Position numbers and translations under genes: made by a program
Shown here: in pieces, positions 7,683-64,000 of the stretch
How positions within the stretch are numbered: position 1 is the first letter of the stretch
Layout of the letters: every line of letters begins with the position of its first letter
DNA from: Armatimonadota bacterium
GTDB taxonomy: Bacteria; Armatimonadota; SYMT01
DNA length: 64,000 nucleotides
Assembly: GCA_041690135.1 (NCBI GenBank)
Contig: JAWLHY010000002.1
Location: forward strand, 976,342-1,040,341
Direction of reading: 5' to 3'
Notes under the pieces: generated by a model
Told to the model about the DNA's origin: nothing
Seen by the model: only the letters and a program-made list of their open reading frames with translations
Database searches by the model: none

Positions 7683-9311
7683 CTAAAGGAGGTCTTTGTC
7701 GTTTGCTGACGGCCCGGCGAAGTTCTTACGGGCGGCTCCGACCCAGTAGACCGCGAGTAGCAAGCCCAGCAGGAGCACGGTCCAGAGAACGAGCTCATTG
7801 GGCGGAAGGCTGAAGATGACGGCCAGGAATCCGATCCAGGCCAGCGCCACGCTGTTCAGGGCCCGGCTCCAGCGGCCCAGGTTCCAGGGAGGCGGATTCC
7901 GGAAGGTCGATTCCGCCTTGGTCGAACGGGCGTTCCTCCGGTTGAGGTAGATGGGGATCCCGTAGGCCAGGTACAGCGTGATCGTGCTGATCGAGGTCAC
8001 CACGCTGAAGGCTGCGGCATAGAGGCAGATCCCCACGGCCAGGGCACTGGTGAGCAGAGTGGCCGCGACGGGTACATTGGTACGCGGATGGACCCTTTTG
8101 AGCCAGGTGGACCCCAGCATTCCGTCGTCGCGGGCGAACGCCCACCACATGCGGCCCATGGAGGTGACGGAAGCCAGTCCGCACAGCCACATCGCCACCC
8201 CGATGATGAGGGCAACCAGGTGACCGGCCAGAACCGGTAGATTCTCATACGCCACGAACAGGACGGGGTACGGATCGGCCGCCGTCGCCGCCACGTCTCC
8301 CCGCGGAATCCGCAGGGTCAACGCGAGCAGCAAGAGGTACCCTACGCCGGCGGAAACAGCCACGGAGAGAAACACGCCCCACGCGGAGTTCAGCCGGGCC
8401 ATCACCGTTTCTTCCGCCACGTGCGCCGAGGCATCGTAGCCGGTGTAGGTCCACTGCGCCTGGAGCAGCCCCAGGACGAACACGAGCGCGAAGGGCGCCG
8501 CCGCATACAGATCACGCAGGCCGGGGAACAGGGCGAAGAGGGGAGAGGGCAGCCGGGATTCGCCCAGGATCAGAACGGGCCCCGTCGCACCGTTCGGCAA
8601 TTCCGCGGAAGAGGCTTCCAGTGGCGACTCGGGTCCGCCGGCCCGCAGCAGGAACTCCAGCGGGTTATGGTGGCGACCCAGGAAAAGGAGCAGGAGCACG
8701 ATCACTCCCACCCCCACCATATGCCAGAAGGCGCTGAAGCTGGTCAACCGCGCCGTCAGCCGGATGCCGTACACGTTGATCGCGACCTGGGGAATCATGA
8801 TCAGCACCATCACCAGCACCTGGAAATACCAGTTGGTGACGGAGCCGAAGTAGGGGAGCGGTTGATCGCCGGGGATCCCCAGGATCCGCGTGACGGCCCC
8901 GATCAGGTAAGTGGCCGCCGCGATATTGATCCCCGCGGTGATGGTGATCTGCCCGATCATGTTCAGCCAGGCCGTCACCCAGGCCCACCCGCGTCCGCCC
9001 AGGCGGAAAGCCCAAAAGTAGAGGCCGCCGGCGGTGGGATAGGCCGAGGCCAGCTCCGCCATCGAGGCCGCCACGCAGAGTGTGAAGAGACTGGCGATGG
9101 GCCATCCCAGCGTGTTGATGACCGGCCCCGCGAACTTGAGGCCGTAGCCGTACAGCAGCACGGCCCCGGTCAGGATCGAGATGATCGAGAACGAGAGGGC
9201 GAAGTTGGAGAACCCGCCCATCTCCCGCAGCAATTGCTGGCCATAGCCCAGCTCGCGCAGATCCTCCGCATCCCGCGCCAGGATCTCTTGCTTGGTTAAT
9301 TGTGGTTTCAT
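7683..9311 (-). CDS. APC-family amino acid permease
   Basis: FSNFALSFSIISIL, ELASAYPTAGGLYFW, WTYTGYDASAHVAEET, AFARD; many TM helices. Confidence 0.93.
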   Translation of the reverse strand: MKPQLTKQEILARDAEDLRELGYGQQLLREMGGFSNFALSFSIISILTGAVLLYGYGLKFAGPVINTLGWPIASLFTLCVAASMAELASAYPTAGGLYFWAFRLGGRGWAWVTAWLNMIGQITITAGINIAAATYLIGAVTRILGIPGDQPLPYFGSVTNWYFQVLVMVLIMIPQVAINVYGIRLTARLTSFSAFWHMVGVGVIVLLLLFLGRHHNPLEFLLRAGGPESPLEASSAELPNGATGPVLILGESRLPSPLFALFPGLRDLYAAAPFALVFVLGLLQAQWTYTGYDASAHVAEETVMARLNSAWGVFLSVAVSAGVGYLLLLALTLRIPRGDVAATAADPYPVLFVAYENLPVLAGHLVALIIGVAMWLCGLASVTSMGRMWWAFARDDGMLGSTWLKRVHPRTNVPVAATLLTSALAVGICLYAAAFSVVTSISTITLYLAYGIPIYLNRRNARSTKAESTFRNPPPWNLGRWSRALNSVALAWIGFLAVIFSLPPNELVLWTVLLLGLLLAVYWVGAARKNFAGPSANDKDLL

Positions 9312-9371
9312 GGGGCTCTCCCGTAGGTGCGGCGACTGCGGCGACTCTCGGCTCGAGAACGGCCCACATTC

Positions 9372-9871
9372 AAACGCAAAGGGCGCAAAGGACGCGAAGG
9401 GCGCAAAGAAAAGCGCAAGCGCGTTGGGTTCAGAGATTCAAGACACGGCGATGAATACCGTCTTTCGCGCGTTCAACATTGAAATTGACCAGCAGACCCA
9501 GCTTGCAGCCAGTCAACCGCAAGTACACCAGGATCTGTGCTTCATGCACGGGGTGGATCGCCTCTACGGACTTGCACTCGATGATGACCTTGCCGCCTAC
9601 GAGGAAATCCAGCCGAAAGCTGCTCTTGAGGGGCGTGCCTTTATAGGAGACGGGGATCTTCTTCTCCCTTTCGAAGGGTATTCCACGGCTCGTCATCTCC
9701 AGTTCGAGTGCCTGGCGGTACACCGCTTCGGGCAAGCCCGGACCCAGCGTCCGGTGCACCTCGATGATCGTACCGATCACCGCGTATGATAGGGCGTCCT
9801 CCTCCGTCGGCATTTTTTTGCTCCTTCAATCCTTCTTTGCGCTCTTCGCGTCCTTCGCGCCCTTTGCGTTT
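9372..9871. mobile_element. Candidate GxxExxY cassette bounded by 39-bp inverted repeats
   Basis: 9372-9410 and 9833-9871 are reverse complements at 37/39 positions, each built of CGC(A/G)AAG(G/A)(G/A) 9-mers; they enclose only the GxxExxY gene. Confidence 0.6.
9430..9813 (-). CDS. GxxExxY protein (PD-(D/E)XK nuclease-like)
   Basis: LGPGLPEAVY, RLDFLV..IIECKS, HEAQILVYL, GLLVNF; SD AAGGAG upstream. Confidence 0.93.
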   Translation of the reverse strand: MPTEEDALSYAVIGTIIEVHRTLGPGLPEAVYRQALELEMTSRGIPFEREKKIPVSYKGTPLKSSFRLDFLVGGKVIIECKSVEAIHPVHEAQILVYLRLTGCKLGLLVNFNVERAKDGIHRRVLNL

Positions 9872-12372
9872 TGCGGTGCAGGCAGCCCCAGGTGTCTATG
9901 CAGGAAATTGAAGGACCCCACCCCGTTAATCTCGTGTGGCCCCACGAACCACTCGATCTCGGTGCGCTCGGGGATTCCCAGGCGGTGGTAGCGCTGGTCG
10001 ACGCGGGCGAACTCGTAGCCGACCCACTCGTCGATGGCGACGCCGTCGTTGCGGCCGCGCTCCACCATGAAGGGACGGGGGCAGATCAGCCATGCCATCT
10101 CCGCGTAGTTGAACGTGTTCCCCAGGTCGAACTCGAAGATCTCGTACTCGCCGGTGAACATGTAGCTGAAGGGGTGGCTCACGGTGGCGTTCTTCGCGAT
10201 CCACTCGTTGAAGTCGCCGGAGCAGATGGAGGCGCAGTAACGCTCCAGGAGGGCCGGCACCCGCATCGCTGTTTTGCCGCCGTAGCTCAGGCCGTAGAAG
10301 GCTATCCGCTCGGCGTCCACGAACGGCTGCCCGGCCAGCCAGTCCAGGATGCGCTCGTGCTGCCGGACGATCACGGAGAAGAGGGTTTTCTTGAGGGGGT
10401 TCAGCTTCCGCTGGAGCACGCGGAACTTGTCTTTGCCGATGTAGGGGTTCTGCGGGGAGAAGGTGATGAAGCCGCGTTCCGTGAGCCGGTTCGCGAACTG
10501 GTGGTAGTGGGGGTTGTTGACCTTCGGGTCGGCGACCTGCTGCGGCTTCCCTTCCAGTCCATGCTGGCACACCACCACCGGCCGCCGCTCGCCGGGCCGT
10601 AGGTCTTTCGGGACCAGCAGGATCCCGTAGGCGTAAACGTCGGGATAGACGTCCAGCATCACCTCGTAGCCGCGATAGGTTGGCTCGTCGTAAACCAGCC
10701 GGGTGCGCGGGTTCATCGGTTCGGAAGCTGGAGGCAGCTTGCCGATGACCTCTTCCCAGAACAGGTCGCGGTACCGGCGGGTGCTCTCGCGCCACTTCTC
10801 CACGCTCGACCCATCGGCCTTGGCCCACAGTTCATTGCGCCGGAACTCTCCCTCCCGCATCATCCGCTGCGTGTGTTCGACGAGTTGGTCGAATTGCCGC
10901 TTGAACCGGACCTCCGGGTCGAAGCCGGTCCGACGGTCCTTGAGGAGGCGCGGGGTGGCCGGGGCGCGACCGGAGGTTTCCAGGCCCAGGCCGCCCATGA
11001 GCTCGGTGAGGGCATTCCAGCTCCCCGGTTGCCCGCTTTTGCTTTCGACTACCTGAAGCCAGGGACGGCTGCCGAGCCCCAGCGTGAGCCTTCGGGCACG
11101 GTCTGCCTCCGCGGTCACCTCGGCCAGGGCGGGGGTAACGATGGTGCCCGGAGCGGCCCCGGCACGTCCCGTGCGGGCAGCGGGTGGGCCGGAGACCTCC
11201 GGAAACCGGCAGTGCTCCACCACCAGCGGGCGCGGGGCGATCAGGCTGCCGACCTCCGCATCTCCGAATTCCTCCAGCAGCCCGAACACGTTCCGGTAGA
11301 TCGGCTCGCTCCATACTTTCTCTCGCGGTTGGAAGTAGCCGCTCACCAGGGCCGCATCAATCCGCGAGTCGAGAGCCGCCGCATAGAGCGCCAGCAGCCC
11401 ACCCTCCCCATACCCGACGACCCCGATGGGGGTGGAAGGTAGATCCTGCCCTGCCCCGTTGGAGCCAGGATCACTCCCACCCCGAGCACCTGAAGACCCG
11501 AACACCCGAACACCTGACCGCCCGACTGCCTGACTACCCGACCCGCTCATCCAATCCACGGCGCTGAGCACCTTCTGGATCTCGTAGCCGATGACGTGGC
11601 GCCCCATCTCGAAGGCCGCCCGGTAGATGAATTCCCGGTGCGGCTGGTTGGTCATCCGGATCGCCGGGTTGCCGGAGTGGGTGTCCTTCCGGTCGATCAA
11701 CATGGGGATCAACACCCGGCAGCCCCGCTCGGCCAGGAGACGAGCGTAGCGGGCTTCCGGGGAAACGCCGGGCGCGAGGCCCGCCAGCATCTCCGGGGTC
11801 CAGTCGCAGTCCGGTAGGGCGATGATTTGCGCGGCCGGCCGATGGTCGTTCGGCTCCAGCAGGAGCCCCTCGGCCTCGAAGCCTTTCAGCACGGGCCACC
11901 GGACCGCCAGCACGCGATATCGCTTTGTCTTCGCGACTGCTTCCGTGCCGGTAGGGGAACCAATTACTTCCAGGTCGGCGAAAGGTTCTCGGGTGTCGAC
12001 CACCCCCAGGTACTTCCGCAGGCGCTGCCGGTTCGGCTCCACGAACCGGTGGTAAGCCTCGGGCGAGGAGAAGTCTCGCTTCCAGTGGTGAGCCCGCTGC
12101 TCCACCGAGCGGCTTAGCTCGCGGTCGAGGAAGCGGTCGATCCCCGCCACCATCTGTTCCGCCAGGTCGCCTTCCTGCTTCAGTAGTTGCGTGCCCCCGA
12201 GCGGTTCACCCGCGGCATCCGCCCGCGCCGCTCCCCCGGACAGCACGGTCGAAGTCACCGCGCCCACCGCCAACAGCACCCACACCCACATCGATCCGCC
12301 CACCGCTTCCTCCTCCGGCGCCGGCTTACTTTCGGCGACCCTAATCGGTTTCTCCCGCCGGAGCGGATCCAC
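9826..12372 (-). CDS. Secreted tandem alpha/beta-hydrolase (dienelactone hydrolase-like)
   Basis: Two hydrolase modules (GYGEGG; VVVCQHGLEG and YGLSYGG). True start may be ATG 12291 (MWVWVLLAV, signal-like). Confidence 0.8.
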   Translation of the reverse strand: MDPLRREKPIRVAESKPAPEEEAVGGSMWVWVLLAVGAVTSTVLSGGAARADAAGEPLGGTQLLKQEGDLAEQMVAGIDRFLDRELSRSVEQRAHHWKRDFSSPEAYHRFVEPNRQRLRKYLGVVDTREPFADLEVIGSPTGTEAVAKTKRYRVLAVRWPVLKGFEAEGLLLEPNDHRPAAQIIALPDCDWTPEMLAGLAPGVSPEARYARLLAERGCRVLIPMLIDRKDTHSGNPAIRMTNQPHREFIYRAAFEMGRHVIGYEIQKVLSAVDWMSGSGSQAVGRSGVRVFGSSGARGGSDPGSNGAGQDLPSTPIGVVGYGEGGLLALYAAALDSRIDAALVSGYFQPREKVWSEPIYRNVFGLLEEFGDAEVGSLIAPRPLVVEHCRFPEVSGPPAARTGRAGAAPGTIVTPALAEVTAEADRARRLTLGLGSRPWLQVVESKSGQPGSWNALTELMGGLGLETSGRAPATPRLLKDRRTGFDPEVRFKRQFDQLVEHTQRMMREGEFRRNELWAKADGSSVEKWRESTRRYRDLFWEEVIGKLPPASEPMNPRTRLVYDEPTYRGYEVMLDVYPDVYAYGILLVPKDLRPGERRPVVVCQHGLEGKPQQVADPKVNNPHYHQFANRLTERGFITFSPQNPYIGKDKFRVLQRKLNPLKKTLFSVIVRQHERILDWLAGQPFVDAERIAFYGLSYGGKTAMRVPALLERYCASICSGDFNEWIAKNATVSHPFSYMFTGEYEIFEFDLGNTFNYAEMAWLICPRPFMVERGRNDGVAIDEWVGYEFARVDQRYHRLGIPERTEIEWFVGPHEINGVGSFNFLHRHLGLPAPQNAKGAKDAKSAKKD
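11481..11544. repeat. Eight degenerate 8-mers (CC[C/T]GAnnn) inside the hydrolase CDS
   Basis: cccgagca cctgaaga cccgaaca cccgaaca cctgaccg cccgactg cctgacta cccgaccc. Confidence 0.75.
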
Positions 12373-55763: not shown

Positions 55764-56324
55764 ATGTCGGTCCGTCTCTTCGTCTTGGGTATTCTCGCGG
55801 AACGGGACGCACACGGCTATGAGATCAAGGAGATCGGCCGTGCCTGGAAGCTGGACAAGTGGGCCGATGTGGGCTTTGGGTCCATCTACCACGCGCTCGC
55901 CAGGCTGCAGGAAGAGGGGTTGATCCGGGAACTCCGCACCGAACAGGAGGGAGACCGGCCTCCCCGCTCCGTCTATCGGATCACTCCTGCCGGGCGGGAG
56001 ACATTTCGCGAACTCGTGCGCGAAACTTGCCGTTCCGTGCAGCCGGAGCGGCGGGCCATTGACCTGGCGCTGCAGTTCCTCGCATACCTGCCGGCTGAAG
56101 AGCGGATTGCGTTACTCCAACAGCGCCTTGCTGCGTTGGAGCAGCGCCTCCGCGCAGCACCCGCAAGGCGGGAAGAGTTGAAGTTTCTGGAGATCAGCGC
56201 TCCGTGGGTGGGTGCGGCGCTGGAGCACCACCTGGCGCACCTGGAACTGGAAGTCCGCTGGACGCGGGAACTCCTCCAGCAGGTAGGGCAGTGGCCGGCG
56301 CGGGAATGTCAAAATGAGCCGTAA
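55764..56324 (+). CDS. PadR family transcriptional regulator
   Basis: LGIL...HGYEI, GSIYHAL.RL...GLI, VY.IT..G. Confidence 0.93.
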   Translation: MSVRLFVLGILAERDAHGYEIKEIGRAWKLDKWADVGFGSIYHALARLQEEGLIRELRTEQEGDRPPRSVYRITPAGRETFRELVRETCRSVQPERRAIDLALQFLAYLPAEERIALLQQRLAALEQRLRAAPARREELKFLEISAPWVGAALEHHLAHLELEVRWTRELLQQVGQWPARECQNEP

Positions 56325-56333
56325 CCGTTCGAA

Positions 56334-56355
56334 GTATATTCCAGTTTGAATATAC
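56334..56355. promoter_or_regulatory. Putative PadR operator 2
   Basis: Palindrome GTATATTC-cagttt-GAATATAC upstream of the CPBP gene. Confidence 0.65.
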
Positions 56356-56402
56356 AAGCCGGACCAATCGACGCACCGGCCCGGTGGCAAAGGAGGCGGA
56401 GA

Positions 56403-57086
56403 ATGGATAACGGTAAGCGGCTCGGGTTCCCTGGATGGCAGGTCTGGCTGGTTCTGGTCGGGTTTCCGGCGCTCTATCTGCTCAACAGTTTCACTCCCTG
56501 GTCTGTCGGCTTGTTCGGCCGCCAGGACCGTTCCTATTGGCTGCCGTTCATGACTTCTGTGCTGGTGCTCCACTGGGCCAGTGCCCTGGCGGTGTTCATC
56601 CTGGTACGGAAGGGCGGCGGCGCCCTCTCCGATCTGGGCCTCCGGATCTCGCCGTCCCGGGGTGCCCTGGGGCTGCTCCTGGTAATCCTCTGGAGCGCGG
56701 GTATGGTCTTCGCGCGTCACACCATGCCCCCAGCCTCCGGCTCGACGGCCCAGTATCCGTCCTGGCTGCAACTCTTCTATCCCCACACGCTTTCAGAGCG
56801 CTGTTTCTGGGTGGTTCTCTCGCTCAGCGCCGGCTTCTGTGAAGAGTTGGTCTATCGCGGCTATGCCATAACCGCGCTCCGACAGCGGGGTTTCCGCCTC
56901 TGGCCGGCGCTCGCTCTGGCGAGCACGTCGTTCGTGTTCGTCCATGGGTTTGCGGGGCTCTTCGCGTTCCCGATCTATTTCCTCAGCGGTCTGTTCTTTG
57001 CCTGGCTCTTCCTGTGGAGAAAGAGCCTCGTACCAGGAATGACGGTCCACGCCCTCTTCGACGTCAATGCCGTGTTCGCCGTGTGA
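56403..57086 (+). CDS. CPBP (CAAX/Abi) intramembrane glutamic endopeptidase
   Basis: AAGGAGG SD; EELVYRGY, FVFVH, HALFD motifs. Confidence 0.9.
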   Translation: MDNGKRLGFPGWQVWLVLVGFPALYLLNSFTPWSVGLFGRQDRSYWLPFMTSVLVLHWASALAVFILVRKGGGALSDLGLRISPSRGALGLLLVILWSAGMVFARHTMPPASGSTAQYPSWLQLFYPHTLSERCFWVVLSLSAGFCEELVYRGYAITALRQRGFRLWPALALASTSFVFVHGFAGLFAFPIYFLSGLFFAWLFLWRKSLVPGMTVHALFDVNAVFAV

Positions 57087-57340
57087 GGCCGATCCGCTAG
57101 GAATGGATACCAGTAGGCCGCCCTCCGCCTGTTGCCGGCCGGAGTGCCTGGCCCGAACAGGAACCGTGAGATTCGGGGACATGCGCCTTTCCCCTCCACC
57201 CTCCCGTCCCGCCCCGCACCCCCGGAGCGTCAGTCAGGAAGAAGGCAGAAGCGTGTGCTCCCTCCAGCCAAACGAGCCACGCTTCGGCCGCAGCCCTCCT
57301 TATCCTCATCATAATCTTTGTCCTAATCCGCGCAGCACAC

Positions 57341-57373
57341 TGCCGGGTTCTGTCAGGGTGACCCTGCTACCAT
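57341..57373 (+). promoter_or_regulatory. Candidate WYL-regulated promoter
   Basis: TGCCG-N5-TGTCA half-palindrome, then TGTCAG-N11-TACCAT with an extended TG. Confidence 0.45.
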
Positions 57374-57412
57374 TCTTCCCAGAGGAACCTTCCGACCCCG
57401 AGGGAACGACCC

Positions 57413-58423
57413 ATGGAACTGCCGAGCGACTACCCGCCTTCCGAAGGCCGCTGGACCCCCAAGCGCCCCGTCCTCCGCCGCATCCTGTGGTACCGCGAGC
57501 GGATCGTCCATCACGGCGGCTTCACCCTGGCCGAGGCTCTCGACGCGCTGGAGATCCACGAGCGGACCTTCCACCGCGACATGGCCTACCTCCGCACCCT
57601 CCACTGGGACCTCGACTTCAACCGCCGGACCCTCCGCTGGGAGACCGGCGATGGCCTGGCGCCGCTCCCCCTCGCCACGGTGGGGGAGGGCGAGATGCTG
57701 GCGCTGCTGGTCGCCGAGCAGGCCCTCCGCTCCTACGCCGGTACCCCCTACGGCGAGTTGGTCCACCAGGCGCTCCACAAGCTGATCGACTTCTTCGACG
57801 CGCCTCTTACCGTGGACCTCAACCAGCCGTTCGTGCCCGTCGTCGGCGGCCCGCCCGTCCGCCGCGTGCAGACCCAGCAGTACCTCCGGCTCTTCGCCGC
57901 CTGCCGCGAGTGCCGCCGCCTGGAGCTCGAGTATTACTCCGCGGACCGCGGCGAGTGGACCACCCGCCGCGTCGATCCCTACCGCCTCTGGCTGTACGGC
58001 GGTGACCCCTACCTCATCGCCTACGATCATCGCCGCGGGAAGCCGCTCACCTTCGCCCTCGGCGAGCGGATGCGTTCCATCCGCGATACCGGCGAGACCT
58101 TCGAGCTCGACCCGGAGTTCGATCTGGACGCCTTCCTCGCGTCCGGCTTCGGCCTCTTCCAGGGCGGCCCCGTGGAGGACGTGGTCCTGCACTTCAGCTC
58201 CCGCGTGGCCCACTTCCTGAACGAGCGCGCCTGGCACGAGTCGGAGTCCAAAACCTCGCTCCCCCACGGCGGCCTGGAGCTGCGGATGCGCGTGCCCGTG
58301 AACATCGGCCTGCTCCGCTTCATCCTCCAATACGGCCCCGATGTCACCGTCGTGGAGCCGGCTTCCCTGCGCGCAGACGTTGCCGGGCTGCTGCGCAAAG
58401 CCCTGGAGGGCTATGGGGACTGA
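57413..58423 (+). CDS. HTH-WYL-WCX transcriptional regulator
   Basis: wHTH (LEIHERTFHRDMAYLR); WYL domain (RRVDPYRL...YLIAYDHRR...TFALGERM); WCX domain (WH..., ILQYGPDV.VVEP..LR). Confidence 0.93.
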   Translation: MELPSDYPPSEGRWTPKRPVLRRILWYRERIVHHGGFTLAEALDALEIHERTFHRDMAYLRTLHWDLDFNRRTLRWETGDGLAPLPLATVGEGEMLALLVAEQALRSYAGTPYGELVHQALHKLIDFFDAPLTVDLNQPFVPVVGGPPVRRVQTQQYLRLFAACRECRRLELEYYSADRGEWTTRRVDPYRLWLYGGDPYLIAYDHRRGKPLTFALGERMRSIRDTGETFELDPEFDLDAFLASGFGLFQGGPVEDVVLHFSSRVAHFLNERAWHESESKTSLPHGGLELRMRVPVNIGLLRFILQYGPDVTVVEPASLRADVAGLLRKALEGYGD

Positions 58424-58666
58424 AGAGGGAGGCCAACTTAGTGCCGAGTGCCGGCCGCTGCTCCCCTCAATCTGTTGGTCAGGTAGTCGCTGTGGCGGAG
58501 ATGACACGCACCGCGAACGGAGAATGAGAGTTGTTTGGATATTCTTCTTGAAGCAGAGAAGGAACCGGCTGCTAGAGTATCGAATATTCTACGCGAACGT
58601 TTGGTGGTGGGCTGTTCGAATGTAAATCACACGCCTGCGGTGTGCGTGATGGGAGGAGATGCGGCG

Positions 58667-59293
58667 GTGAAGCGATACGAGGTGAGTTTTGAAGTTGAAG
58701 GGCCGGCCGCCATGTTCAACCGGCCGGACGCGGGTTCTACGCCCATTTCCTATCCGGTACCCACTTACTCTGCCTTGAAGGGCATGTTTGAAGCCGTTGC
58801 GCGCCTCCACGGAGCGTATCTCCGGCCGGTTCGTGTTGAGATATGCCGGCCCATCCGTTTTGAGAAATATGCCACGAATTACGGGGGGCCATTGCGCAAG
58901 CCCGACCAGATCAAGAAGGGCAACAACTATCAACTCGTAGCAACCATTCTCGTCGATGTTTGTTACCGAGTGTATGGGGATGTGCAACCCACGGGTGACG
59001 GTGATGGTTCGCTCAATCGCCTCCACGCGCTTCAAGTAATGTTCGAACGGAGACTGGCGAACGGGCAGTGGTACTATCCACCGGTGCTTGGCTGGAAGGA
59101 ATTCGTTCCAACGTATTTCGGACCTCTCCGGGACGGGAGCCGGCCGGAACCGGATGTGAACCTCTTTCTTCCCGCCCTGCTCCATTCGGTGTTCGATCGC
59201 CCGAAGGCCGGACGTGTCGCTCCGAGCTTTCGGCGGAATGTTCACGTTCGTGAAGGCGTGATCAATTTTGAGGAGGCGGCCGGTGCTGAGTGA
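58667..59293 (+). CDS. cas5: Type I-C-like Cas5
   Basis: GTG with GGAGGAG SD; EVEGPAAMFNRPD, SYPVPTYSALKGMFEAV, LVDVCYRV, MFERRL..GQ...P.LGWKEF. Confidence 0.9.
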   Translation: MKRYEVSFEVEGPAAMFNRPDAGSTPISYPVPTYSALKGMFEAVARLHGAYLRPVRVEICRPIRFEKYATNYGGPLRKPDQIKKGNNYQLVATILVDVCYRVYGDVQPTGDGDGSLNRLHALQVMFERRLANGQWYYPPVLGWKEFVPTYFGPLRDGSRPEPDVNLFLPALLHSVFDRPKAGRVAPSFRRNVHVREGVINFEEAAGAE

Positions 59294-61427
59294 AGTCTAC
59301 CGCTTGTGGTGTAGCCTCGACCGAGCAGGTGTGGAGTTACCGCGAGTGCATCCCCGGGTGAATATTCCGGGCAGTACCAGTGGGCCTTGTCTGCGAGTCC
59401 GACTTAACCCGGAAGGAAGAGTTGCCGGTCTCGACGGTGTCACCCCAGATGACTGGTCGGGGCTATGGACGGTAGTTAGAACCAGCGAGGGTAGCTTCCC
59501 GGTAATTCGTGTAAAGCAACCACTTCTTTCGGTGCCGGCTGGCCTTGTGCTGTGGGCAGAACTGGCTGAAGCAAAAAAGGCAAAGGATCAGCGCAGGCGC
59601 ATCCGGATCTTGCAAGAGGCTGTCAGCTTTGCTCCAGACGCGTTGTTGCTCAAGAAGACTCTTGACCTCATACGCCGTGTAAGAGACGAGAAGGCAGGCG
59701 AACTGCTCGCCTGCACCGACCCTTGCGATCCGGATTTTGCAGCCCTCCCGGAGTTCGCCCGACGTTTCCAGCTAGCGGCACGCGAGCCGCTAACTCTCCT
59801 CGGCGAGGTTGGTACACAGGCGGTAGCAGGTCTGCTTTCAGGGCAGTCGGAGCTTCTGGATGTTGTCGAGGTCCTTCTACTTGGGAAAGGCGCACCCATT
59901 GATGACGGCTCACGACCGGACATCAATATTCAGCTTGCCTTCTGCCTTGATGATGAGCGCCTCTACCGGCGCCGTCTTTATAGCCGACACATGCGAGAGT
60001 TCGTAATGCAGATCCTTCCCAGTGAGCCGGATGCAGGTGGCCGGCCAGCACCTACGGATGGACGTGCTGAGGCTCTGGAGTGCGCCTTTATCGGGGTTTC
60101 GAAGGGCCTGCAGCACTCTGCCTTTCCCCCAGTTCGGCTCCCCCTGGTTGCTGAGAAGGGGGTGCCGTTGGTCTCCATGTTTAGCGAGGCCGCGTGTAAC
60201 CGTCGCTACGGACTTACCGACTCCTCGGTCGTGCCTGTTGACAAAGGCATGGCCTTACAGATGGCTGCCGCACTCCGGTGGGTGACTCTTGATGAGCGAC
60301 GCGGTGTAACCTGGAGAGGCGTTGCAAGCGGGAAGTTCGAGGCTTCTTCCCGCGGGAAGGTGGAAAAGCGAGATCTCCTTCTGGTGTATGTCGAGGATGA
60401 GCCCGAAATTCGTGCGGAATTTGCTGACTTCTTTGGCACGGATGCCTCCACACTCCAGAAGCAATTCGACGTCGAAACGGCTTCTGTTTGCGAGGCACTC
60501 GAAGGTCTCTCCAAGCGGAAGCCTCAAAGTCAGCTAAACCTAATCCTCATTCGTCAGGCTTCCGAGGGTCAGGTGCACGTCGCTCTTGCAGAGTCCGTCT
60601 CGGTCGTGGAGCTTCTGCATGGGGCTCAGCGGTGGCAAGAAGGTGCCAGGAACCTCCCGCCAATCGCCTTGCCTGTTCCGGGCAGCAAAGGGCAGAAAGC
60701 CGAACTACATCGCCCACGTGCTCCCTTCCCTGATCAAGTGGTCCGTCTGCTATCTGAAGACTGGGTCACGAATGGGACCAGGTCGAACAAGGTGGAGGGG
60801 ATCGGCCTCGGTCAGGTACTCGAAGTAATGCTGTGCAAGCCGGGCAAGTGGGAGCCGGGAGCTCGGTACTTGTTGGACCTCACTCTGCGCCGCACACAAT
60901 CGCTGCTTGTAGGAGTATTTGGCGCCCTTCGCACACCCGACCGCCGGAAGTGGGATGACTATGGTGCCGCTGTAAGAGAGAATGCTCTTCGGAGTGTGAG
61001 CATAATGGGGATTCTCCTGAGTGCTCTCGACCGCCAGAAGGAGACTTATATGGATTCGCCCACATTTCTTGTCGGGCGCTTGCTGTCGCTCGCCGACACG
61101 CTCCACCTCGAATACTGCAAGCACGTACGGGGAGGCGATATCCCGCCGCAACTCATTGGCAATGCGCTGATGCCGGTCGCCCGTGATAATCCGCTGGCTG
61201 CCGTGGATCGGCTTGGCGAACGATTGAGTGTTTACAAGGCATGGGCCACCAAGGCATCCGGCGATGACGTGGGCCTCGCGAAGTGGGCGGTTGGGCAAAT
61301 GGGTGAGGTCTGCCGTAGTTTGGCGGAGAAGCCTCCGTCCATTACGACAAATGAGGTGGACAGGGCCGAGATCTTCCTCGGTTACATGGCGAGTACTAAA
61401 GGTTCGTCCGGTGGAACGAACGGTTGA
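59283..61427 (+). CDS. cas8c: Cas8c-like large subunit (divergent)
   Basis: Lies between cas5 and cas7; MLSEVY start; C-terminal FLVGRLL...IFLGY small-subunit domain. Confidence 0.75.
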   Translation: MLSEVYRLWCSLDRAGVELPRVHPRVNIPGSTSGPCLRVRLNPEGRVAGLDGVTPDDWSGLWTVVRTSEGSFPVIRVKQPLLSVPAGLVLWAELAEAKKAKDQRRRIRILQEAVSFAPDALLLKKTLDLIRRVRDEKAGELLACTDPCDPDFAALPEFARRFQLAAREPLTLLGEVGTQAVAGLLSGQSELLDVVEVLLLGKGAPIDDGSRPDINIQLAFCLDDERLYRRRLYSRHMREFVMQILPSEPDAGGRPAPTDGRAEALECAFIGVSKGLQHSAFPPVRLPLVAEKGVPLVSMFSEAACNRRYGLTDSSVVPVDKGMALQMAAALRWVTLDERRGVTWRGVASGKFEASSRGKVEKRDLLLVYVEDEPEIRAEFADFFGTDASTLQKQFDVETASVCEALEGLSKRKPQSQLNLILIRQASEGQVHVALAESVSVVELLHGAQRWQEGARNLPPIALPVPGSKGQKAELHRPRAPFPDQVVRLLSEDWVTNGTRSNKVEGIGLGQVLEVMLCKPGKWEPGARYLLDLTLRRTQSLLVGVFGALRTPDRRKWDDYGAAVRENALRSVSIMGILLSALDRQKETYMDSPTFLVGRLLSLADTLHLEYCKHVRGGDIPPQLIGNALMPVARDNPLAAVDRLGERLSVYKAWATKASGDDVGLAKWAVGQMGEVCRSLAEKPPSITTNEVDRAEIFLGYMASTKGSSGGTNG
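61050..61427 (+). CDS. cas11: Internally translated Cas11 small subunit (in frame within cas8)
   Basis: AAGGAG (61038-61043), 6 nt, then in-frame ATG at the start of the GRL...FLGY helical domain; 125 aa. Confidence 0.7.
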   Translation: MDSPTFLVGRLLSLADTLHLEYCKHVRGGDIPPQLIGNALMPVARDNPLAAVDRLGERLSVYKAWATKASGDDVGLAKWAVGQMGEVCRSLAEKPPSITTNEVDRAEIFLGYMASTKGSSGGTNG

Positions 61428-61445
61428 GAACAACAGGAGGAGAAG

Positions 61446-62309
61446 ATGGCAGATAGCGGGACGGAGTCGGTGCCCCGAGCGACGGGGTTGCTGGTGATCG
61501 AAGTGCGGAACTCCAATCCGAACGGTGATCCGGACCAGGAGAGTGACCCTCGTCAGCGGAGTCATGATCTGCGCGGAGTCATTTCCGGTGTGTCATTCAA
61601 ACGTAAGTTGCGTGACCTGGTGCAGGACAAGGAAGGACCAGTCTGGACTGAGGTGAGCCGGCACTTGGGCATTGGTGACCTGAGTGAGGAGTTTCATATT
61701 CTCGAAAGCCGCGGACGCGTGAGAAAGACCATTGAGGAAGAGATCAAAAGCGGCAAGTTCGAGGGTAAGTACTGGGACGCACGTCTCTTCGGCAATACGT
61801 TTCTGGAGAAGGATGGCACTGACTCACTCCGCACTGGCGTTGCGCAGTTCCCAATAGGCATATCCGTGGCGCCTATTCGCATCGAGCGCATGACGAACAC
61901 CAACAAGTCCGGTGTTCAGGAAGGTAAAGATCGGGGCATGGCTCCTCTCGGGTATCGCGTCGTTGAACATGGGGTCTATTGTATGCCGTTCTTCATCAAC
62001 CCCACGGCGGCTACTCGCACTGGCTGCACGCGCCGCGACGTCGAACTGCTGTTGAAGCTCATTCCTTACGCATATCCCCACACCGCTTCGCACGTTCGTC
62101 CCTACGTTGAAGTGCGTCACGCCTGGTATGTCGAGCACAAGTCGCGGTTAGGGTCCTGCTCCGACTTCGCAATCATCGATGCCTTGACGCCTCGTCGGAC
62201 AGGAAATCCAGACGCACCTTCGACGAGTTGGGCCGATTACGATGTGCCAACGGATCTCGACGGCCTTCGAGATCGCGTTCAACCCCTCCGCGACCTGGTA
62301 GCTGAGTGA
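61446..62309 (+). CDS. cas7: Type I-C Cas7 (Csd2-like)
   Basis: EVRNSNPNGDPD..SDPR, VSFKRKLRD, WDARLFG, TGVAQF, INP..A.RTG.T..D. Confidence 0.92.
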   Translation: MADSGTESVPRATGLLVIEVRNSNPNGDPDQESDPRQRSHDLRGVISGVSFKRKLRDLVQDKEGPVWTEVSRHLGIGDLSEEFHILESRGRVRKTIEEEIKSGKFEGKYWDARLFGNTFLEKDGTDSLRTGVAQFPIGISVAPIRIERMTNTNKSGVQEGKDRGMAPLGYRVVEHGVYCMPFFINPTAATRTGCTRRDVELLLKLIPYAYPHTASHVRPYVEVRHAWYVEHKSRLGSCSDFAIIDALTPRRTGNPDAPSTSWADYDVPTDLDGLRDRVQPLRDLVAE

Positions 62310-64000
62310 TGTCCGATCCTCTCGCCCATAGCCCGCGACCCCCGATTGCCTCCCAGAAGTACTGCGACCATGTGGGGAACGTGGGGAGAGGCGCGGCTAG
62401 GAACGCGTCCGCGGCCGCCACCTTCTATACCGGTGACAGTGCCCAGTTCGTGGATGTGGTCCGCGCGGCGGCGGACTACCACGATTTGGGAAAGCTGGAT
62501 GAAGCCAACCAGGAGGTGCTTCGCCGGGTATCGCGGGATCCGCTTCCGATAAGGCATGAGGACGCGGGGATCGCTGCACTCCTTCAGTTGCGCCGGAGGG
62601 AGTCGGCGATCCTCGTGGCGGCGCACCATGCGGGGCTCTTCGGTCAGGCCGCGGAGATGGAAAAGCCTGAGGGGCGATTGTTCCGCATTCCGGAAGTTGC
62701 GGATCGCACTGATCGATGCCTTGACGATTACCTTCGCGCTCATGAGGAAGCCGCATGCCCCGCCTGGTCGGAGTTACCGCCGAACCAGATTCACAGGTGC
62801 GGTTTCACGCGGCGGGTCGCGCTTTCATGTCTGGTGGATGCTGATCACGGAGATACGGCGCACAATTATGGTCGGGAGGTGGCCGTCGTCCCTCCCGACC
62901 CCAGGTGGGAGGAGCGCCTCGCAGCCCTCGACCGCTTTATTGCGAACCTCCCACGTGTGAACCCTGCTCGGGACGACCTTCGGCAAAGGGTGTTTGAATG
63001 TTGTCGTGCCGCTCCAATCGAGCCTGCGATCCGCTCCTGCGATGCCCCGGTCGGCAGTGGTAAGACGACAGCGGTCATGGCTCATCTGCTTCAGGCCGCG
63101 ATTGGAAAGAATCTGCGCCGCATCTTCGTCGTTCTTCCCTACACGAATATCATTCGCCAATCGGTGGAAATCTACCGGGATGCGCTCGTGCTGCCTGGCG
63201 AAAGGCCGGAGGACATCGTCGCCGAGCACCACCATCGGGCAGAGTTCCAGGACCTGGAGCTCCGTCAACTCGCCACACTCTGGCGTGCTCCCATCGTAGT
63301 GACCACGGCGGTTCAGTTTTTTGAAACGCTGGGAGCTTCTCATCCCGCCCGGCTTCGCAAACTGCACGAGTTGCCGGGTTCCGCAGTCTTTGTGGATGAG
63401 ACTCATGCCGCGATCCCCTCCCATCTTTGGCCGCAGATGTGGAAATGGCTGGAGACCTGGACGCGAGATTGGCGGGGGCACCTGGTTCTGGCGAGTGGAT
63501 CTCTACCACGCTTCTGGGAATTGGAAGAGTTTGTAGACCCACCGAGAGCGCCCAATGAGATACCGGATCTCGTCACCGAAGACCTCCGGCACGAGTTAGA
63601 GGCCGCCGAACAGGTGCGGACGCGACTACGCCGGCTTGACAACGGCTTGACCAGTCAGGAGTTGATCGACCTCGTAACCAGTCAGCCGGGCCCACGTCTC
63701 CTCATCCTGAACACGGTTCAGTCGGCGGCAGTGATCGCCGAACGGATGCGCAACCAGGGCCACCACGTAGTCCATCTCTCGACCGCTTTAGCGCCGGCGC
63801 ATCGGGATCTAATCGTTACGAGGGTGAAAGAACGGTTGCGCCTCGGATTCAACGACTGGACCCTGGTAGCGACCAGTTGCGTGGAGGCGGGGATGAACTT
63901 CTCCTTCCGTACCGGATTCCGCGAAAGTGCTGGAGTTGCCAACCTGATCCAGGTGAGCGGGCGCGTGAGTCGCGGTGGCGAACATTCCGAAGCCGTGGTT
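62309..64000 (+). CDS. cas3: Cas3 HD nuclease-helicase, truncated by window edge
   Basis: Not in the ORF track. TGATG overlap with cas7. Manual translation: LAHS, DH, YHDLGK, HEDAG, AAHHAGL, LVDADH, APVGSGKT, LPYTNII, TTAVQFF, VDETH, NTV, HLST, ATSCVEAG, QVSGRVSR. Confidence 0.93.
   Translation, partial: MSDPLAHSPRPPIASQKYCDHVGNVGRGAARNASAAATFYTGDSAQFVDVVRAAADYHDLGKLDEANQEVLRRVSRDPLPIRHEDAGIAALLQLRRRESAILVAAHHAGLFGQAAEMEKPEGRLFRIPEVADRTDRCLDDYLRAHEEAACPAWSELPPNQIHRCGFTRRVALSCLVDADHGDTAHNYGREVAVVPPDPRWEERLAALDRFIANLPRVNPARDDLRQRVFECCRAAPIEPAIRSCDAPVGSGKTTAVMAHLLQAAIGKNLRRIFVVLPYTNIIRQSVEIYRDALVLPGERPEDIVAEHHHRAEFQDLELRQLATLWRAPIVVTTAVQFFETLGASHPARLRKLHELPGSAVFVDETHAAIPSHLWPQMWKWLETWTRDWRGHLVLASGSLPRFWELEEFVDPPRAPNEIPDLVTEDLRHELEAAEQVRTRLRRLDNGLTSQELIDLVTSQPGPRLLILNTVQSAAVIAERMRNQGHHVVHLSTALAPAHRDLIVTRVKERLRLGFNDWTLVATSCVEAGMNFSFRTGFRESAGVANLIQVSGRVSRGGEHSEAVV

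What the first reader, a model, noticed from the sequence alone, without database searches (positions are those of the whole stretch)
57341..64000. WYL-led divergent type I-C-like effector operon (cas5-cas8/11-cas7-cas3) with no array or adaptation genes in view
Seen in sequence: a WYL regulator followed by tightly coupled cas5, cas8, cas7 and cas3, with cas3 last. Canonical I-C has cas3-cas5-cas8c-cas7-cas4-cas1-cas2. Cas8 is about 714 aa with little recognisable similarity outside its C-terminus. Cas3 has variant helicase motifs (DETH; ASGS in place of SAT). Cas5 reads EAVARL where canonical Cas5c has EAIYW(K), the region carrying the catalytic Tyr for crRNA processing, and no cas6 is visible. 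The cas genes use visibly more A/T-ending codons than the WYL gene and the chromosome. Established: WYL proteins sense nucleic acids and regulate defence loci. Inference: a horizontally acquired, stress-inducible Cascade-Cas3 variant that may use a remote array or non-canonical guide RNA.
Basis: partly seen in the sequence, partly recalled or inferred. Interest (0 to 1): 0.8.

Follow-up and report, generated by a model that had tools for sequence, protein, structure and literature searches.

The report
Complete, rearranged hybrid type I-C CRISPR locus
This is a complete type I-C CRISPR-Cas immune locus whose adaptation genes and a large spacer array lie just past the window edge; its DNA-targeting genes belong to a divergent, differently ordered lineage that appears to have been swapped in beside the host's own spacer-acquisition genes.

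Summary
The "missing" parts are only cut off by the window edge. cas3 ends about 0.5 kb past base 64000. cas4-cas1-cas2 and an 87-repeat array of typical I-C repeats (hairpin plus an 11-nt tail ending ATTGAAAC) follow. The remote-array or non-canonical-guide idea is therefore refuted.

The effector proteins are truly divergent. They belong to a populous clade (33 loci in species-representative genomes; 394 protein clusters at E<=1e-30) that always has cas3 after cas7. Its Cas8 is recognisable as Cas8c only by profile and fold. Its Cas5 has non-catalytic residues (Ala, Ala, Leu) at the three canonical Cas5c triad positions.

The locus looks chimeric. cas5-cas3 have third-codon-position G+C (GC3) of 0.61-0.67, against 0.89-0.92 for WYL and cas4-cas1-cas2. 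Cas4/1/2 are 64-72% identical to a same-family genome with a canonical I-C locus, while the effector proteins are only 25-27% identical or undetectable. The Cas1 and Cas7 trees disagree accordingly.

Verdict: a known kind of system and an ordinary function. The module swap and the Cas5 active-site question are modest points of interest. No expression or target data were found.

The parts
57413..58423 (+). WYL-WCX regulator gene (336 aa), host-like codon usage
   Evidence: Pfam WYL 63 bits and WCX 56.1 bits. PADLOC WYL 110 bits. GC3 0.92. A 30%-identical paralogue heads the genome's type I-E locus. An N-terminal HTH is inferred only from the homologue in L028, which has HTH_11.
58424..58648 (+). 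Intergenic region between WYL and cas5. The composition drops from about 58500. Presumed promoter/operator of the effector operon and upstream junction of the foreign module.
   Evidence: Sequence read. G+C step. No sigma-70-like site was found by the consensus scan, so the promoter assignment is an inference.
58649..59293 (+). cas5 (214 aa from ATG 58649; the mechanical ORF starts at TTG 58535)
   Evidence: Pfam Cas_Cas5d 33.6 bits. NCBIfam TIGR01876 34.8 bits, below the cut-off of 85. AF2 model pLDDT 85. The top 11 Foldseek PDB hits are all I-C Cas5c/Cas5d, TM 0.69-0.75. The canonical triad columns hold A51, A127 and L128.
59268..61427 (+). cas8c, divergent large subunit (719-aa ORF; 714 aa from 59283)
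   Evidence: PADLOC Cas8c PDLC01562 E 6e-136, full length. No Pfam or NCBIfam hit. AF2 pLDDT 84. The 9 Foldseek hits with E<=1e-5 are all I-C Cas8c chains. hhalign against canonical Cas8c of the same phylum gives only 72% probability and 14% identity.
61050..61427 (+). Internal cas11c reading frame inside cas8c (125 aa): ATG preceded by AAGGAG with a 6-nt spacer
   Evidence: Met is present at this column in 29 of 30 clade cas8 genes (one GTG), with a strict Shine-Dalgarno core in 24 of 30. The C-terminal part of the model matches Cas11c chains, TMt 0.58-0.75 over about 110 columns.
61446..62309 (+). cas7 (287 aa)
   Evidence: Pfam Cas_Cas7 168 bits. NCBIfam Csd2 110.8 bits, below the cut-off of 182. 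It sits inside the clade of cas3-last loci, separated from canonical-order Cas7 with SH-aLRT 100.
62306..64000 (+). cas3 (735 aa; HD nuclease fused to an SF2 helicase), cut by the window end. It runs on to window-equivalent 64513.

The rest of the locus lies BEYOND THE WINDOW in the same contig and strand (window-equivalent coordinate = L001 position + 56658):
- cas4 64575-65207
- cas1 65204-66238
- a 383-bp repeat-bearing gap
- cas2 66622-66912
- a 242-bp leader
- a CRISPR array at 67155-73561 (87 repeats of 37 nt, 86 spacers of 33-42 nt)
   Evidence: cas3:
- NCBIfam cas3_HD 46.7 bits and cas3_core 68.6 bits.
- PADLOC Cas3c 313 bits for the full protein.
- The HD motifs, motif I GSGKT, II DETH, III SGS and VI QxxGRxxR are conserved.
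- It aligns to the I-C Cas3 structures 8zns and 8g9u, E about 1e-32.

Downstream parts:
- PADLOC Cas4c 259 bits, Cas1c 476 bits, Cas2c 126 bits.
- GC3 0.89-0.92.
- 64%, 72% and 68% identical to the same-family genome G021.
- The array is documented.
- The repeat GTCGCACCCGGCCACCGAGCCGGGTGAGGATTGAAAC folds into an 8-9-bp hairpin followed by an 11-nt tail. It occurs nowhere else in the 9.1-Mb genome.

Best explanation
The finding is the front half of a complete type I-C CRISPR-Cas locus: WYL, cas5, cas8c (with an internal cas11c), cas7, cas3, cas4, cas1, cas2, a leader, and an 87-repeat array.

How it most likely works (inferred from the family):
- The array is transcribed from the leader.
- Each repeat forms a hairpin and is cut at its 3' base. 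This leaves crRNAs with an 11-nt AGGAUUGAAAC 5' handle.
- Cas5, several Cas7, Cas8c and internally translated Cas11c assemble on the crRNA into Cascade.
- Cascade finds a PAM-flanked DNA target, forms an R-loop and recruits the HD-helicase Cas3, which degrades the DNA.
- Cas4-Cas1-Cas2 add new spacers at the leader end.
- The WYL-WCX protein probably controls transcription of the effector operon.

What is special is the evolutionary make-up. The effector module (cas5-cas8-cas7-cas3) belongs to a widespread, deeply divergent I-C lineage in which cas3 always follows cas7. In that lineage Cas5 lacks the canonical Tyr/Lys/His triad. The adaptation module, the repeat type and the WYL gene are of the host lineage's own kind. 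The locus is therefore a hybrid made by exchange of the effector module. Both lineages use the same crRNA handle, which would make such an exchange workable.
For: SHOWN
- Completeness: cas4, cas1, cas2 and an 87-repeat array lie directly downstream in the same contig and strand.
- Repeat: a hairpin plus an 11-nt tail ending ATTGAAAC, as in the 32-nt repeats of most relatives.
- Family assignment: the Cas8 and Cas5 models hit only I-C Cas8c and Cas5c structures at the top. The PADLOC I-C profiles match.
- Cas3: catalytic motifs are intact.
- cas11c: the internal start with its Shine-Dalgarno sequence is conserved.
- Clade and gene order: 33 related loci came from many phyla. cas7 is followed by cas3 in 32 of 33 (the other contig ends in cas8). 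cas4-cas1-cas2 follow in 25. In 7 the contig ends first, and 1 has none within about 7 kb.
- Family size: 827 clusters at E<=1e-3 and 394 at E<=1e-30.

HYBRID ORIGIN
- Composition: GC3 is 0.92 for WYL, 0.62/0.61/0.64/0.67 for cas5/8/7/3, and 0.91/0.92/0.89 for cas4/1/2, with sharp steps in both intergenic regions.
- Comparison with G021: this same-family genome has a canonical cas3-cas5-cas8(Pfam Csd1 294 bits)-cas7-cas4-cas1-cas2 locus. Cas4/1/2 are 64/72/68% identical to it. Cas5/7/3 are 27/25/26% identical, and Cas8 is undetectable by BLASTP.
- Cas1 tree: the query pairs with G021 (SH-aLRT 98) inside the canonical-order clade (97).
- Cas7 tree: the query lies inside the cas3-last clade (100).
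- AU test: forcing the query Cas1 together with the 21 clade-type Cas1s is rejected (p-AU 0.007).
- Repeats: 12 of 14 canonical loci of the phylum, and G021, carry the same 37-nt repeat type as this array. 13 cas3-last loci carry 32-33-nt repeats.
- Distribution: the divergent Cas8 was found in 1 of 41 genomes searched (G000 and its 40 relatives), namely G000 itself. Canonical Cas5c is over its cut-off in 76 of 301 genomes of the phylum.
Against: - No expression data: no RNA run is on record.
- No spacer matched the genome itself or the phage collection, so activity and PAM are unshown.
- Cas5 has Ala/Ala/Leu at the three canonical triad columns. Cas5-catalysed processing is therefore an assumption. 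Only a neighbouring His126 (present in 12 of 31 clade members) and a clade-specific invariant TNYGGPLRK motif are candidates.
- The flanks show no synteny with G021, so an in-place swap in this lineage is not shown directly.
- GC3 is not uniform even in G021's canonical locus (cas8 0.64 against 0.84-0.98), so composition alone is a soft argument.
- The AU-test group was defined after seeing the tree.
- The trees are quick searches with LG+G4 on 39 and 48 rows, and the canonical rows come from one phylum only.
- WYL sits upstream of cas5 in only 2 of 29 related loci with enough upstream sequence, so its regulatory link is by position only.
Confidence: 0.8

Rival explanations
1. One reading: an effector-only Cascade-Cas3 operon without its own array or adaptation genes, which borrows a remote array or uses a non-canonical guide RNA.
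For: Within the 64-kb window no array or adaptation gene is visible. The Cas5 active-site region is non-canonical.
Against: cas4-cas1-cas2 and an 87-repeat array follow cas3 directly in the same contig and strand. The repeat has the standard I-C hairpin-plus-handle form. The genome's only other arrays carry a different repeat and sit at the type I-E locus on another contig.
Confidence: 0.02
2. The whole locus, already a hybrid, arrived in this genome in one piece from another organism. The exchange of modules happened elsewhere, and the composition contrast was inherited.
For: Two other cas3-last loci combine the divergent effector module with canonical-type Cas1 and 37-nt repeats: L023 (Armatimonas) and L003 (Nitrospira). 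They show a milder GC3 step. The flanks have no synteny with G021. The divergent Cas8 was found in none of the 40 relatives.
Against: WYL and cas4-cas1-cas2 have GC3 of 0.89-0.92, and the window upstream of the locus is 65% G+C. The nearest Cas1 is that of a genome of the same family, at 72% identity against 58% or less for L023 and L003. The WYL gene has a paralogue at the genome's I-E locus with the same GC3.
Confidence: 0.12
3. The effector module is not a working interference machine. Cas5 cannot process pre-crRNA, so the locus is decaying or serves another role, while the array is a relic of the earlier canonical system.
For: The Cas5 triad columns hold Ala/Ala/Leu. No protospacer matches were found. 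There is no RNA evidence.
Against: - All eight genes are intact, and the Cas3 nuclease and helicase motifs are kept.
- The same Cas5 type is conserved across 30 aligned loci (mean column identity 55%), which keep adaptation modules and arrays of up to 70 repeats.
- The 52 leader-proximal repeats of this array are identical, as expected for recent spacer uptake.
- 3 of 18 canonical Cas5c proteins scoring over the NCBIfam cut-off also lack the 'invariant' Lys, so the triad is not a reliable test of activity.
Confidence: 0.06

Closest known systems
Canonical type I-C (Dvulg) CRISPR-Cas: Desulfovibrio vulgaris, Neisseria lactamica and Bacillus halodurans systems (PDB 7KHA, 8DEX, 8G9S-8G9U, 4F3M)
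   Same: - Three-gene Cascade (Cas5, Cas8c, Cas7) with no Cas6.
- Cas11c read from an internal start in cas8c.
- HD-helicase Cas3.
- Cas4-Cas1-Cas2 adaptation module.
- Repeat with a hairpin and an 11-nt handle ending ATTGAAAC.
- The Cas5 and Cas8 models match these structures best.
   Different: - cas3 lies after cas7 instead of before cas5.
- Cas8 is about 100-150 aa longer and shares no BLASTP-detectable similarity with canonical Cas8c of a sister genome.
- Cas5, Cas7 and Cas3 are only about 25% identical.
- The Cas5 triad positions are Ala/Ala/Leu.
- Cas3 motif III reads SGS instead of TAT/SAT.
The cas5-cas8-cas7-cas3 clade of I-C loci in public genomes (for example Syntrophorhabdus aromaticivorans UI, Nitrospira, Armatimonas, Brocadiaceae and Desulfobacteraceae MAGs; loci L002-L034)
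   Same: Same gene order, same Cas8 family (26-51% identity), same Cas5 type with the TNYGGPLRK motif, and the same internal cas11 start.
   Different: Most members (21 of 23 in the Cas1 tree) have their own Cas1 clade, and 13 loci have 32-33-nt repeats. This locus, like L023 and L003, carries canonical-type Cas1 and a 37-nt repeat. A WYL gene upstream is seen in only 2 of 29.
HTH-WYL-WCX transcription regulators of defence loci (for example BrxR, CapW and the Synechocystis sll7009 repressor of a type I-D system; names recalled, not from a call)
   Same: WYL plus WCX domains, a length of about 330 aa, and a position at the head of a defence operon.
   Different: No ligand, operator or regulatory effect is known here. 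The HTH is inferred only from a homologue.

Membership tests
Type I-C CRISPR-Cas | Signature large subunit Cas8c | tested here: met
   PADLOC Cas8c PDLC01562 453 bits, full length. The 9 Foldseek PDB hits with E<=1e-5 are all I-C Cas8c. However, there is no Pfam or NCBIfam hit, and hhalign to canonical Cas8c gives only 72% probability.
Type I-C CRISPR-Cas | Cas5 of the Cas5c/Cas5d type and no cas6 gene in the locus | tested here: met
   The top 11 Foldseek hits are all Cas5c/d, TM 0.69-0.75. hhalign to canonical Cas5c gives 99.7% probability. No Cas6 lies among the locus genes. NCBIfam TIGR01876 scores 34.8 bits, below the cut-off of 85.
Type I-C CRISPR-Cas | Cas5c catalytic triad (Tyr/Lys/His in B. 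halodurans and S. mutans) for pre-crRNA cleavage | tested here: not met
   Profile-profile and MAFFT alignments place A51, A127 and L128 at the three columns. The triad and its variability are described in passages of PMC8524198. 3 of 18 canonical Cas5c also lack the Lys.
Type I-C CRISPR-Cas | Cas11c made from an internal translation start in cas8c | tested here: met
   ATG at codon 595 with AAGGAG 6 nt upstream and 125 aa remaining. Conserved in 29 of 30 clade genes. The C-terminus matches Cas11c chains. Translation itself was not tested.
Type I-C CRISPR-Cas | Cas7 of the Csd2 family | tested here: inconclusive
   The best NCBIfam match is Csd2, but at 110.8 bits against a cut-off of 182. Pfam Cas7 scores 168 bits. 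In the tree it is a clade apart from canonical-order Cas7.
Type I-C CRISPR-Cas | Gene order cas3-cas5-cas8c-cas7-cas4-cas1-cas2 | tested here: not met
   The order here is cas5-cas8-cas7-cas3-cas4-cas1-cas2. cas7 is followed by cas3 in 32 of 33 related loci, and cas4-cas1-cas2 follow in 25. The 15 canonical loci examined all have cas3 first.
Type I-C CRISPR-Cas | Single-chain HD nuclease plus SF2 helicase Cas3 with intact motifs | tested here: met
Type I-C CRISPR-Cas | Adaptation module Cas4, Cas1 (I-C type) and Cas2 next to an array | tested here: met
   Cas1c 476 bits, Cas4c 259 bits, Cas2c 126 bits. Array of 87 repeats.
Type I-C CRISPR-Cas | Repeat with a stable hairpin followed by an 11-nt handle ending ATTGAAAC | tested here: met
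Type I-C CRISPR-Cas | crRNA-guided, PAM-dependent DNA interference | not testable with these tools
   No RNA run was available, and no protospacer was found.
HTH-WYL-WCX regulators | WYL ligand-binding domain followed by a WCX domain | tested here: met
   Pfam PF13280 63 bits and PF25583 56 bits.
HTH-WYL-WCX regulators | N-terminal DNA-binding helix-turn-helix | tested here: inconclusive
   There is no Pfam HTH hit at E<=0.01 in this protein. The PADLOC WYL profile covers residues 31-319. The 28%-identical homologue in L028 has HTH_11, E 7.5e-11.

The most novel reading that the evidence does not exclude
The cas5-cas8-cas7-cas3 loci are a distinct, so far undescribed I-C lineage. Its Cas5 has given up the Tyr/Lys/His triad and matures crRNA with a different set of residues, or leaves the job to a host RNase. 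In this genome that lineage's effector module replaced a canonical I-C effector module while the native Cas4-Cas1-Cas2, the array and a WYL regulator were kept. This would be a natural experiment showing that deeply diverged I-C Cascades are interchangeable on the same repeat handle.
Probability: 0.3. Interest if true: 0.5.

Novelty: new member of a known kind. Interest (0 to 1): 0.3.

Why it matters
Two modest points remain.

First, the locus is a clean example of effector-module exchange within one CRISPR subtype. The native spacer-acquisition genes, repeat type and regulator were kept. This bears on how Cascades and arrays stay compatible, and on how hosts may escape anti-CRISPRs aimed at Cas8 or Cas7.

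Second, a large natural clade of I-C systems carries a Cas5 without the catalytic triad defined in the model enzymes. A simple cleavage assay could show how far the "Cas5 replaces Cas6" mechanism can vary. Compact I-C systems are used for genome editing, so a divergent lineage that works on the same crRNA handle could be of practical use.

Tried and rejected
- RNA evidence: no RNA holder was listed for the cas genes.
- Spacer targets: blastn-short of the 86 spacers against the whole genome gave only 18-22-nt chance matches. Megablast of the array against 50,697 phage records gave no match. No PAM could be inferred.
- Promoter scan of 57000-58800: no sigma-70-like site, and one weak terminator-like site on the minus strand.
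- Synteny of the flanks with the G021 locus by tblastx: only short low-scoring fragments, treated as noise.
- Literature: searches were run. Passages were read in PMC10333696 (there 'I-C variant' refers to what is now called I-G), PMC10910872, PMC8616872 and PMC12669027 (the 2025 classification, whose text mentions I-C only for a transposon-associated form). None described the cas3-last I-C clade or its Cas5. Figures and supplements of the classification papers could not be seen and may show it. The 2015 classification paper (PMC5426118) is not held.
- Typing of the system as I-B or I-G was considered and rejected. The I-B and I-G profiles score well below the I-C ones for Cas5, Cas7 and Cas3.
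- One alignment call failed because one row (L029) held a stop codon. It was repeated without that row.
Those parts are now described under the cas3 part.

Full report
**1. What is in the window**

- A WYL-WCX protein at 57413-58423.
- cas5. The mechanical ORF is 58535-59293. All homologues align from about residue 45 onward, so the ATG at 58649 is the likely start.
- A 714-719-aa cas8 at 59268-61427.
- cas7 at 61446-62309.
- cas3 from 62306, still open at base 64000.

Pfam and NCBIfam do not recognise Cas8 at all. Cas5 and Cas7 score far below NCBI's I-C cut-offs: 34.8 against 85 bits, and 110.8 against 182 bits. The PADLOC collection holds a Cas8c profile that matches the whole protein (E 6e-136). 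It also holds Cas3c, Cas5c and Cas7b/c profiles that match better than those of other subtypes.

**2. What lies just beyond the window**

The window is G000:C2:976342-1040341. I read 20 kb from C2:1033000 as locus L001, where window coordinate = L001 position + 56658.
- cas3 ends at L001 7855 (735 aa).
- cas4 follows at 7917-8549, then cas1 at 8546-9580 and cas2 at 9964-10254. PADLOC scores are Cas4c 259 bits, Cas1c 476 bits and Cas2c 126 bits.
- After a 242-bp leader comes a CRISPR array of 87 repeats of 37 nt at L001 10497-16903.
- The repeat, GTCGCACCCGGCCACCGAGCCGGGTGAGGATTGAAAC, folds into an 8-9-bp hairpin followed by an 11-nt tail. This is the architecture of I-C repeats.
- The repeat occurs nowhere else in the 9.1-Mb assembly.

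The operon does not lack its own array and adaptation genes, and it has no need of a remote array or an unusual guide. That impression came from the window edge.

**3. The array**

- There are 86 spacers of 33-42 nt, of which 82 are unique. One block of four repeat-spacer units is duplicated exactly.
- The 52 leader-proximal repeats are identical. Older repeats fall into blocks whose hairpin stems differ by compensatory changes, such as GGCC/GGCC, GGTC/GACC and GACC/GGTC.
- I read this pattern as selection on the hairpin and as successive 'epochs' of the leader-proximal template repeat. That reading is an inference.
- No spacer matches the genome itself beyond 22 nt or any of 50,697 phage records. 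Targets and PAM are unknown.

**4. A populous clade with cas3 after cas7**

- An alignment of Cas8 relatives found 33 loci in species-representative genomes. They come from Nitrospirota, Armatimonadota, Thermodesulfobacteriota, Planctomycetota, Chloroflexota, Bacillota, Acidobacteriota, Gemmatimonadota and others.
- Mapping the eight proteins of this locus on them by tblastn shows cas7 followed by cas3 in 32 of 33. The remaining contig ends in cas8.
- cas4-cas1-cas2 come next in 25. In 7 the contig ends first. One locus (L033) has none within about 7 kb.
- None has the canonical cas3-first arrangement. L021 has an extra 487-aa cas3-like ORF upstream.
- A full scan of 1.84 billion protein representatives found 827 clusters related to this Cas8 at E<=1e-3 and 394 at E<=1e-30. 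The lineage is common.
- NCBI already names one relative 'type I-C Cas8c/Csd1'.

**5. How far the clade is from canonical I-C**

I collected 15 canonical-order loci from the same phylum, among them G021 from the same family.
- Against G021, Cas5, Cas7 and Cas3 are 27, 25 and 26% identical.
- Cas8 has no BLASTP match with E below 1. The profile-profile comparison reaches only 72% probability at 14% identity.
- Structure prediction settles the family. The Cas5 model (pLDDT 85) has eleven I-C Cas5c/Cas5d structures as its best hits, TM 0.69-0.75, well ahead of the I-E and I-B Cas5.
- For the Cas8 model (pLDDT 84), the nine hits with E<=1e-5 are all I-C Cas8c chains. Its C-terminal 110 residues match Cas11c chains.
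- Inside cas8, an ATG at codon 595 is preceded by AAGGAG with a 6-nt spacer, and 125 codons remain. The Met is present in 29 of 30 clade genes, with a strict Shine-Dalgarno core in 24. This is the internal Cas11c start known for I-C (title and abstract of PMC7684278, from search listings).

**6. Cas3**

- The HD residues (YHDLGK, HHAG, VDADH), motif I (GSGKT), motif II (DETH, a normal DExH form) and motif VI (QxxGRxxR) are all present and conserved.
- Motif III reads S-G-S in 30 of 32 clade members aligned, where N. lactamica Cas3 has T-A-T.

I see no sign of inactivation.

**7. Cas5 active site**

- Passages of PMC8524198 give the triad as Tyr50/Lys120/His121 in S. mutans (Tyr46/Lys116/His117 in the earlier work). 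They state that only the Lys is invariant.
- MAFFT of 31 clade and 18 canonical Cas5 and hhalign of the two alignments (probability 99.7%) agree. This protein has A51, A127 and L128 at the three positions.
- A His (H126) sits one residue before the Lys column, at the start of the predicted helix 122-137. It is present in only 12 of 31 clade members. The other 19 mostly have Arg at the Lys column.
- The clade has an invariant TNYGGPLRK motif where canonical proteins have RNEV.
- 3 of the 18 canonical proteins, all over the NCBIfam cut-off, also have Ala at the 'invariant' Lys column.

The canonical triad is not met, so I cannot say whether or how this Cas5 cuts RNA. The conserved hairpin-plus-handle repeats, and the absence of any cas6 in these loci, make Cas5-dependent processing with a remodelled site the most economical guess. 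This is an inference.

**8. The locus is a hybrid**

- Composition. GC3 is 0.92 in WYL. It is 0.62, 0.61, 0.64 and 0.67 in cas5, cas8, cas7 and cas3. It is 0.91, 0.92 and 0.89 in cas4, cas1 and cas2. In 40-codon windows the steps fall in the two intergenic regions.
- Identity to G021. Cas4, Cas1 and Cas2 are 64, 72 and 68% identical to G021, whose locus is canonical (Pfam Csd1 294 bits for its Cas8). This is three times the identity of the effector proteins.
- Cas1 tree. This Cas1 pairs with G021 (SH-aLRT 98) inside the clade of canonical-order loci (97). 21 of the 23 Cas1s from cas3-last loci form a separate clade (99).
- Cas7 tree. This Cas7 lies inside the cas3-last clade, separated from all 15 canonical ones (100).
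- AU test. Forcing this Cas1 into the cas3-last Cas1 clade costs 74 log-likelihood units (p-AU 0.007). The group was defined after seeing the tree.
- Repeats. The repeat type follows Cas1, not the effector. G021 and 12 of 14 canonical loci of the phylum have 37-nt repeats ending GAGGATTGAAAC like this array. 13 cas3-last loci have 32-33-nt repeats.
- Other hybrids. Two other cas3-last loci, L023 (Armatimonas) and L003 (Nitrospira), show the same combination and a milder GC3 step. Such exchanges seem to recur.
- Distribution. The divergent Cas8 was found in none of the 40 relatives searched. Canonical Cas5c is over its cut-off in 76 of 301 genomes of the phylum.

Modular exchange between adaptation and effector modules is a known theme in CRISPR evolution (PMC6452270, search listing only). 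This is a clear case of it within one subtype.

Caveats:
- The flanks show no synteny with G021.
- G021's own cas8 has a low GC3 of 0.64.
- The trees are quick searches on a limited sample.

**9. The WYL gene**

- It has WYL and WCX domains and host-like codon usage.
- A 30%-identical paralogue with the same GC3 stands at the head of the genome's second CRISPR-Cas locus, a type I-E system on contig C3.
- Among related cas3-last loci with at least 900 bp upstream, only 2 of 29 have a WYL gene there. G021 shows none.
- One PADLOC Cas3c profile of 1009 positions matches WYL proteins with its N-terminal part. This suggests that WYL-Cas3 fusions exist in I-C.

I take WYL to be a resident regulator of the effector operon. 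No operator, ligand or effect is shown, and 'stress-inducible' remains speculation.

**10. Verdict**

This is a complete type I-C CRISPR-Cas locus of a known kind, with an ordinary predicted function. The proposed oddity (no array, no adaptation genes, non-canonical guide) is not. What remains of interest is the effector-module exchange and the unanswered question of how this common I-C lineage processes its crRNA without the canonical Cas5 triad. I found no paper describing this lineage. Figures and supplements of the classification papers could not be checked.

Noticed in passing
G000:C3:831810-850139 (locus L094 = C3:836500-852500): A second CRISPR-Cas system, type I-E (cas6e, cas5e, cas7e and cas11e by PADLOC), with three arrays of about 21-44 repeats at a 61-nt period. 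It has its own WYL gene (L094 10254-11255, minus strand, GC3 0.92, 30% identical to the window's WYL). The I-E cas genes have GC3 of about 0.78-0.80.
   Followed up: partly
L001 9581-9963 (window-equivalent 66239-66621): An unusual 383-bp gap between cas1 and cas2; the gap is 14 nt in G021. It holds runs of the heptad ATTACGC and two copies of an approximately 80-bp stretch that includes the region just upstream of the cas2 start. The 13-mer ATTACGCATTACG occurs 31 times in the genome against 0.27 expected.
   Followed up: partly
L001 10497-16903: The array shows blocks of repeat variants whose hairpin stems differ by compensatory changes. It also holds an exact duplication of four repeat-spacer units (spacers 12-15 equal spacers 16-19).
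   Followed up: partly
L078 10104-11828 (G021, canonical I-C locus): The canonical cas8c of the sister genome has GC3 of 0.64, while its neighbours cas3, cas5, cas7, cas4, cas1 and cas2 have 0.84-0.98. This hints that cas8 alone may have been exchanged there.
   Followed up: no
Loci L052, L054, L056 (canonical Cas5c of the same phylum): 3 of 18 canonical Cas5c proteins that score over the NCBIfam cut-off have Ala at the Lys column that PMC8524198 calls invariant.
   Followed up: no
L021 5582-7042; L007 13244-18195: L021 has an extra 487-aa cas3-like ORF (HD plus DEAD) upstream of cas5, in addition to the cas3 after cas7. In L007 the cas3 matches are split by about 2.6 kb, possibly an insertion.
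   Followed up: no
L001 17500-20000 (window-equivalent about 74160-76660): Downstream of the array lies a stretch rich in short tandem repeats: TACTCC x12, TAATCC, AATGCCTG x4, and a 115-bp unit x2.4-2.8.
   Followed up: no
window 55764-57083: Just upstream of the WYL gene lie a PadR-family regulator (55764-56321) and a CAAX/Rce1-like protease (56346-57083) on the same strand.
   Followed up: no
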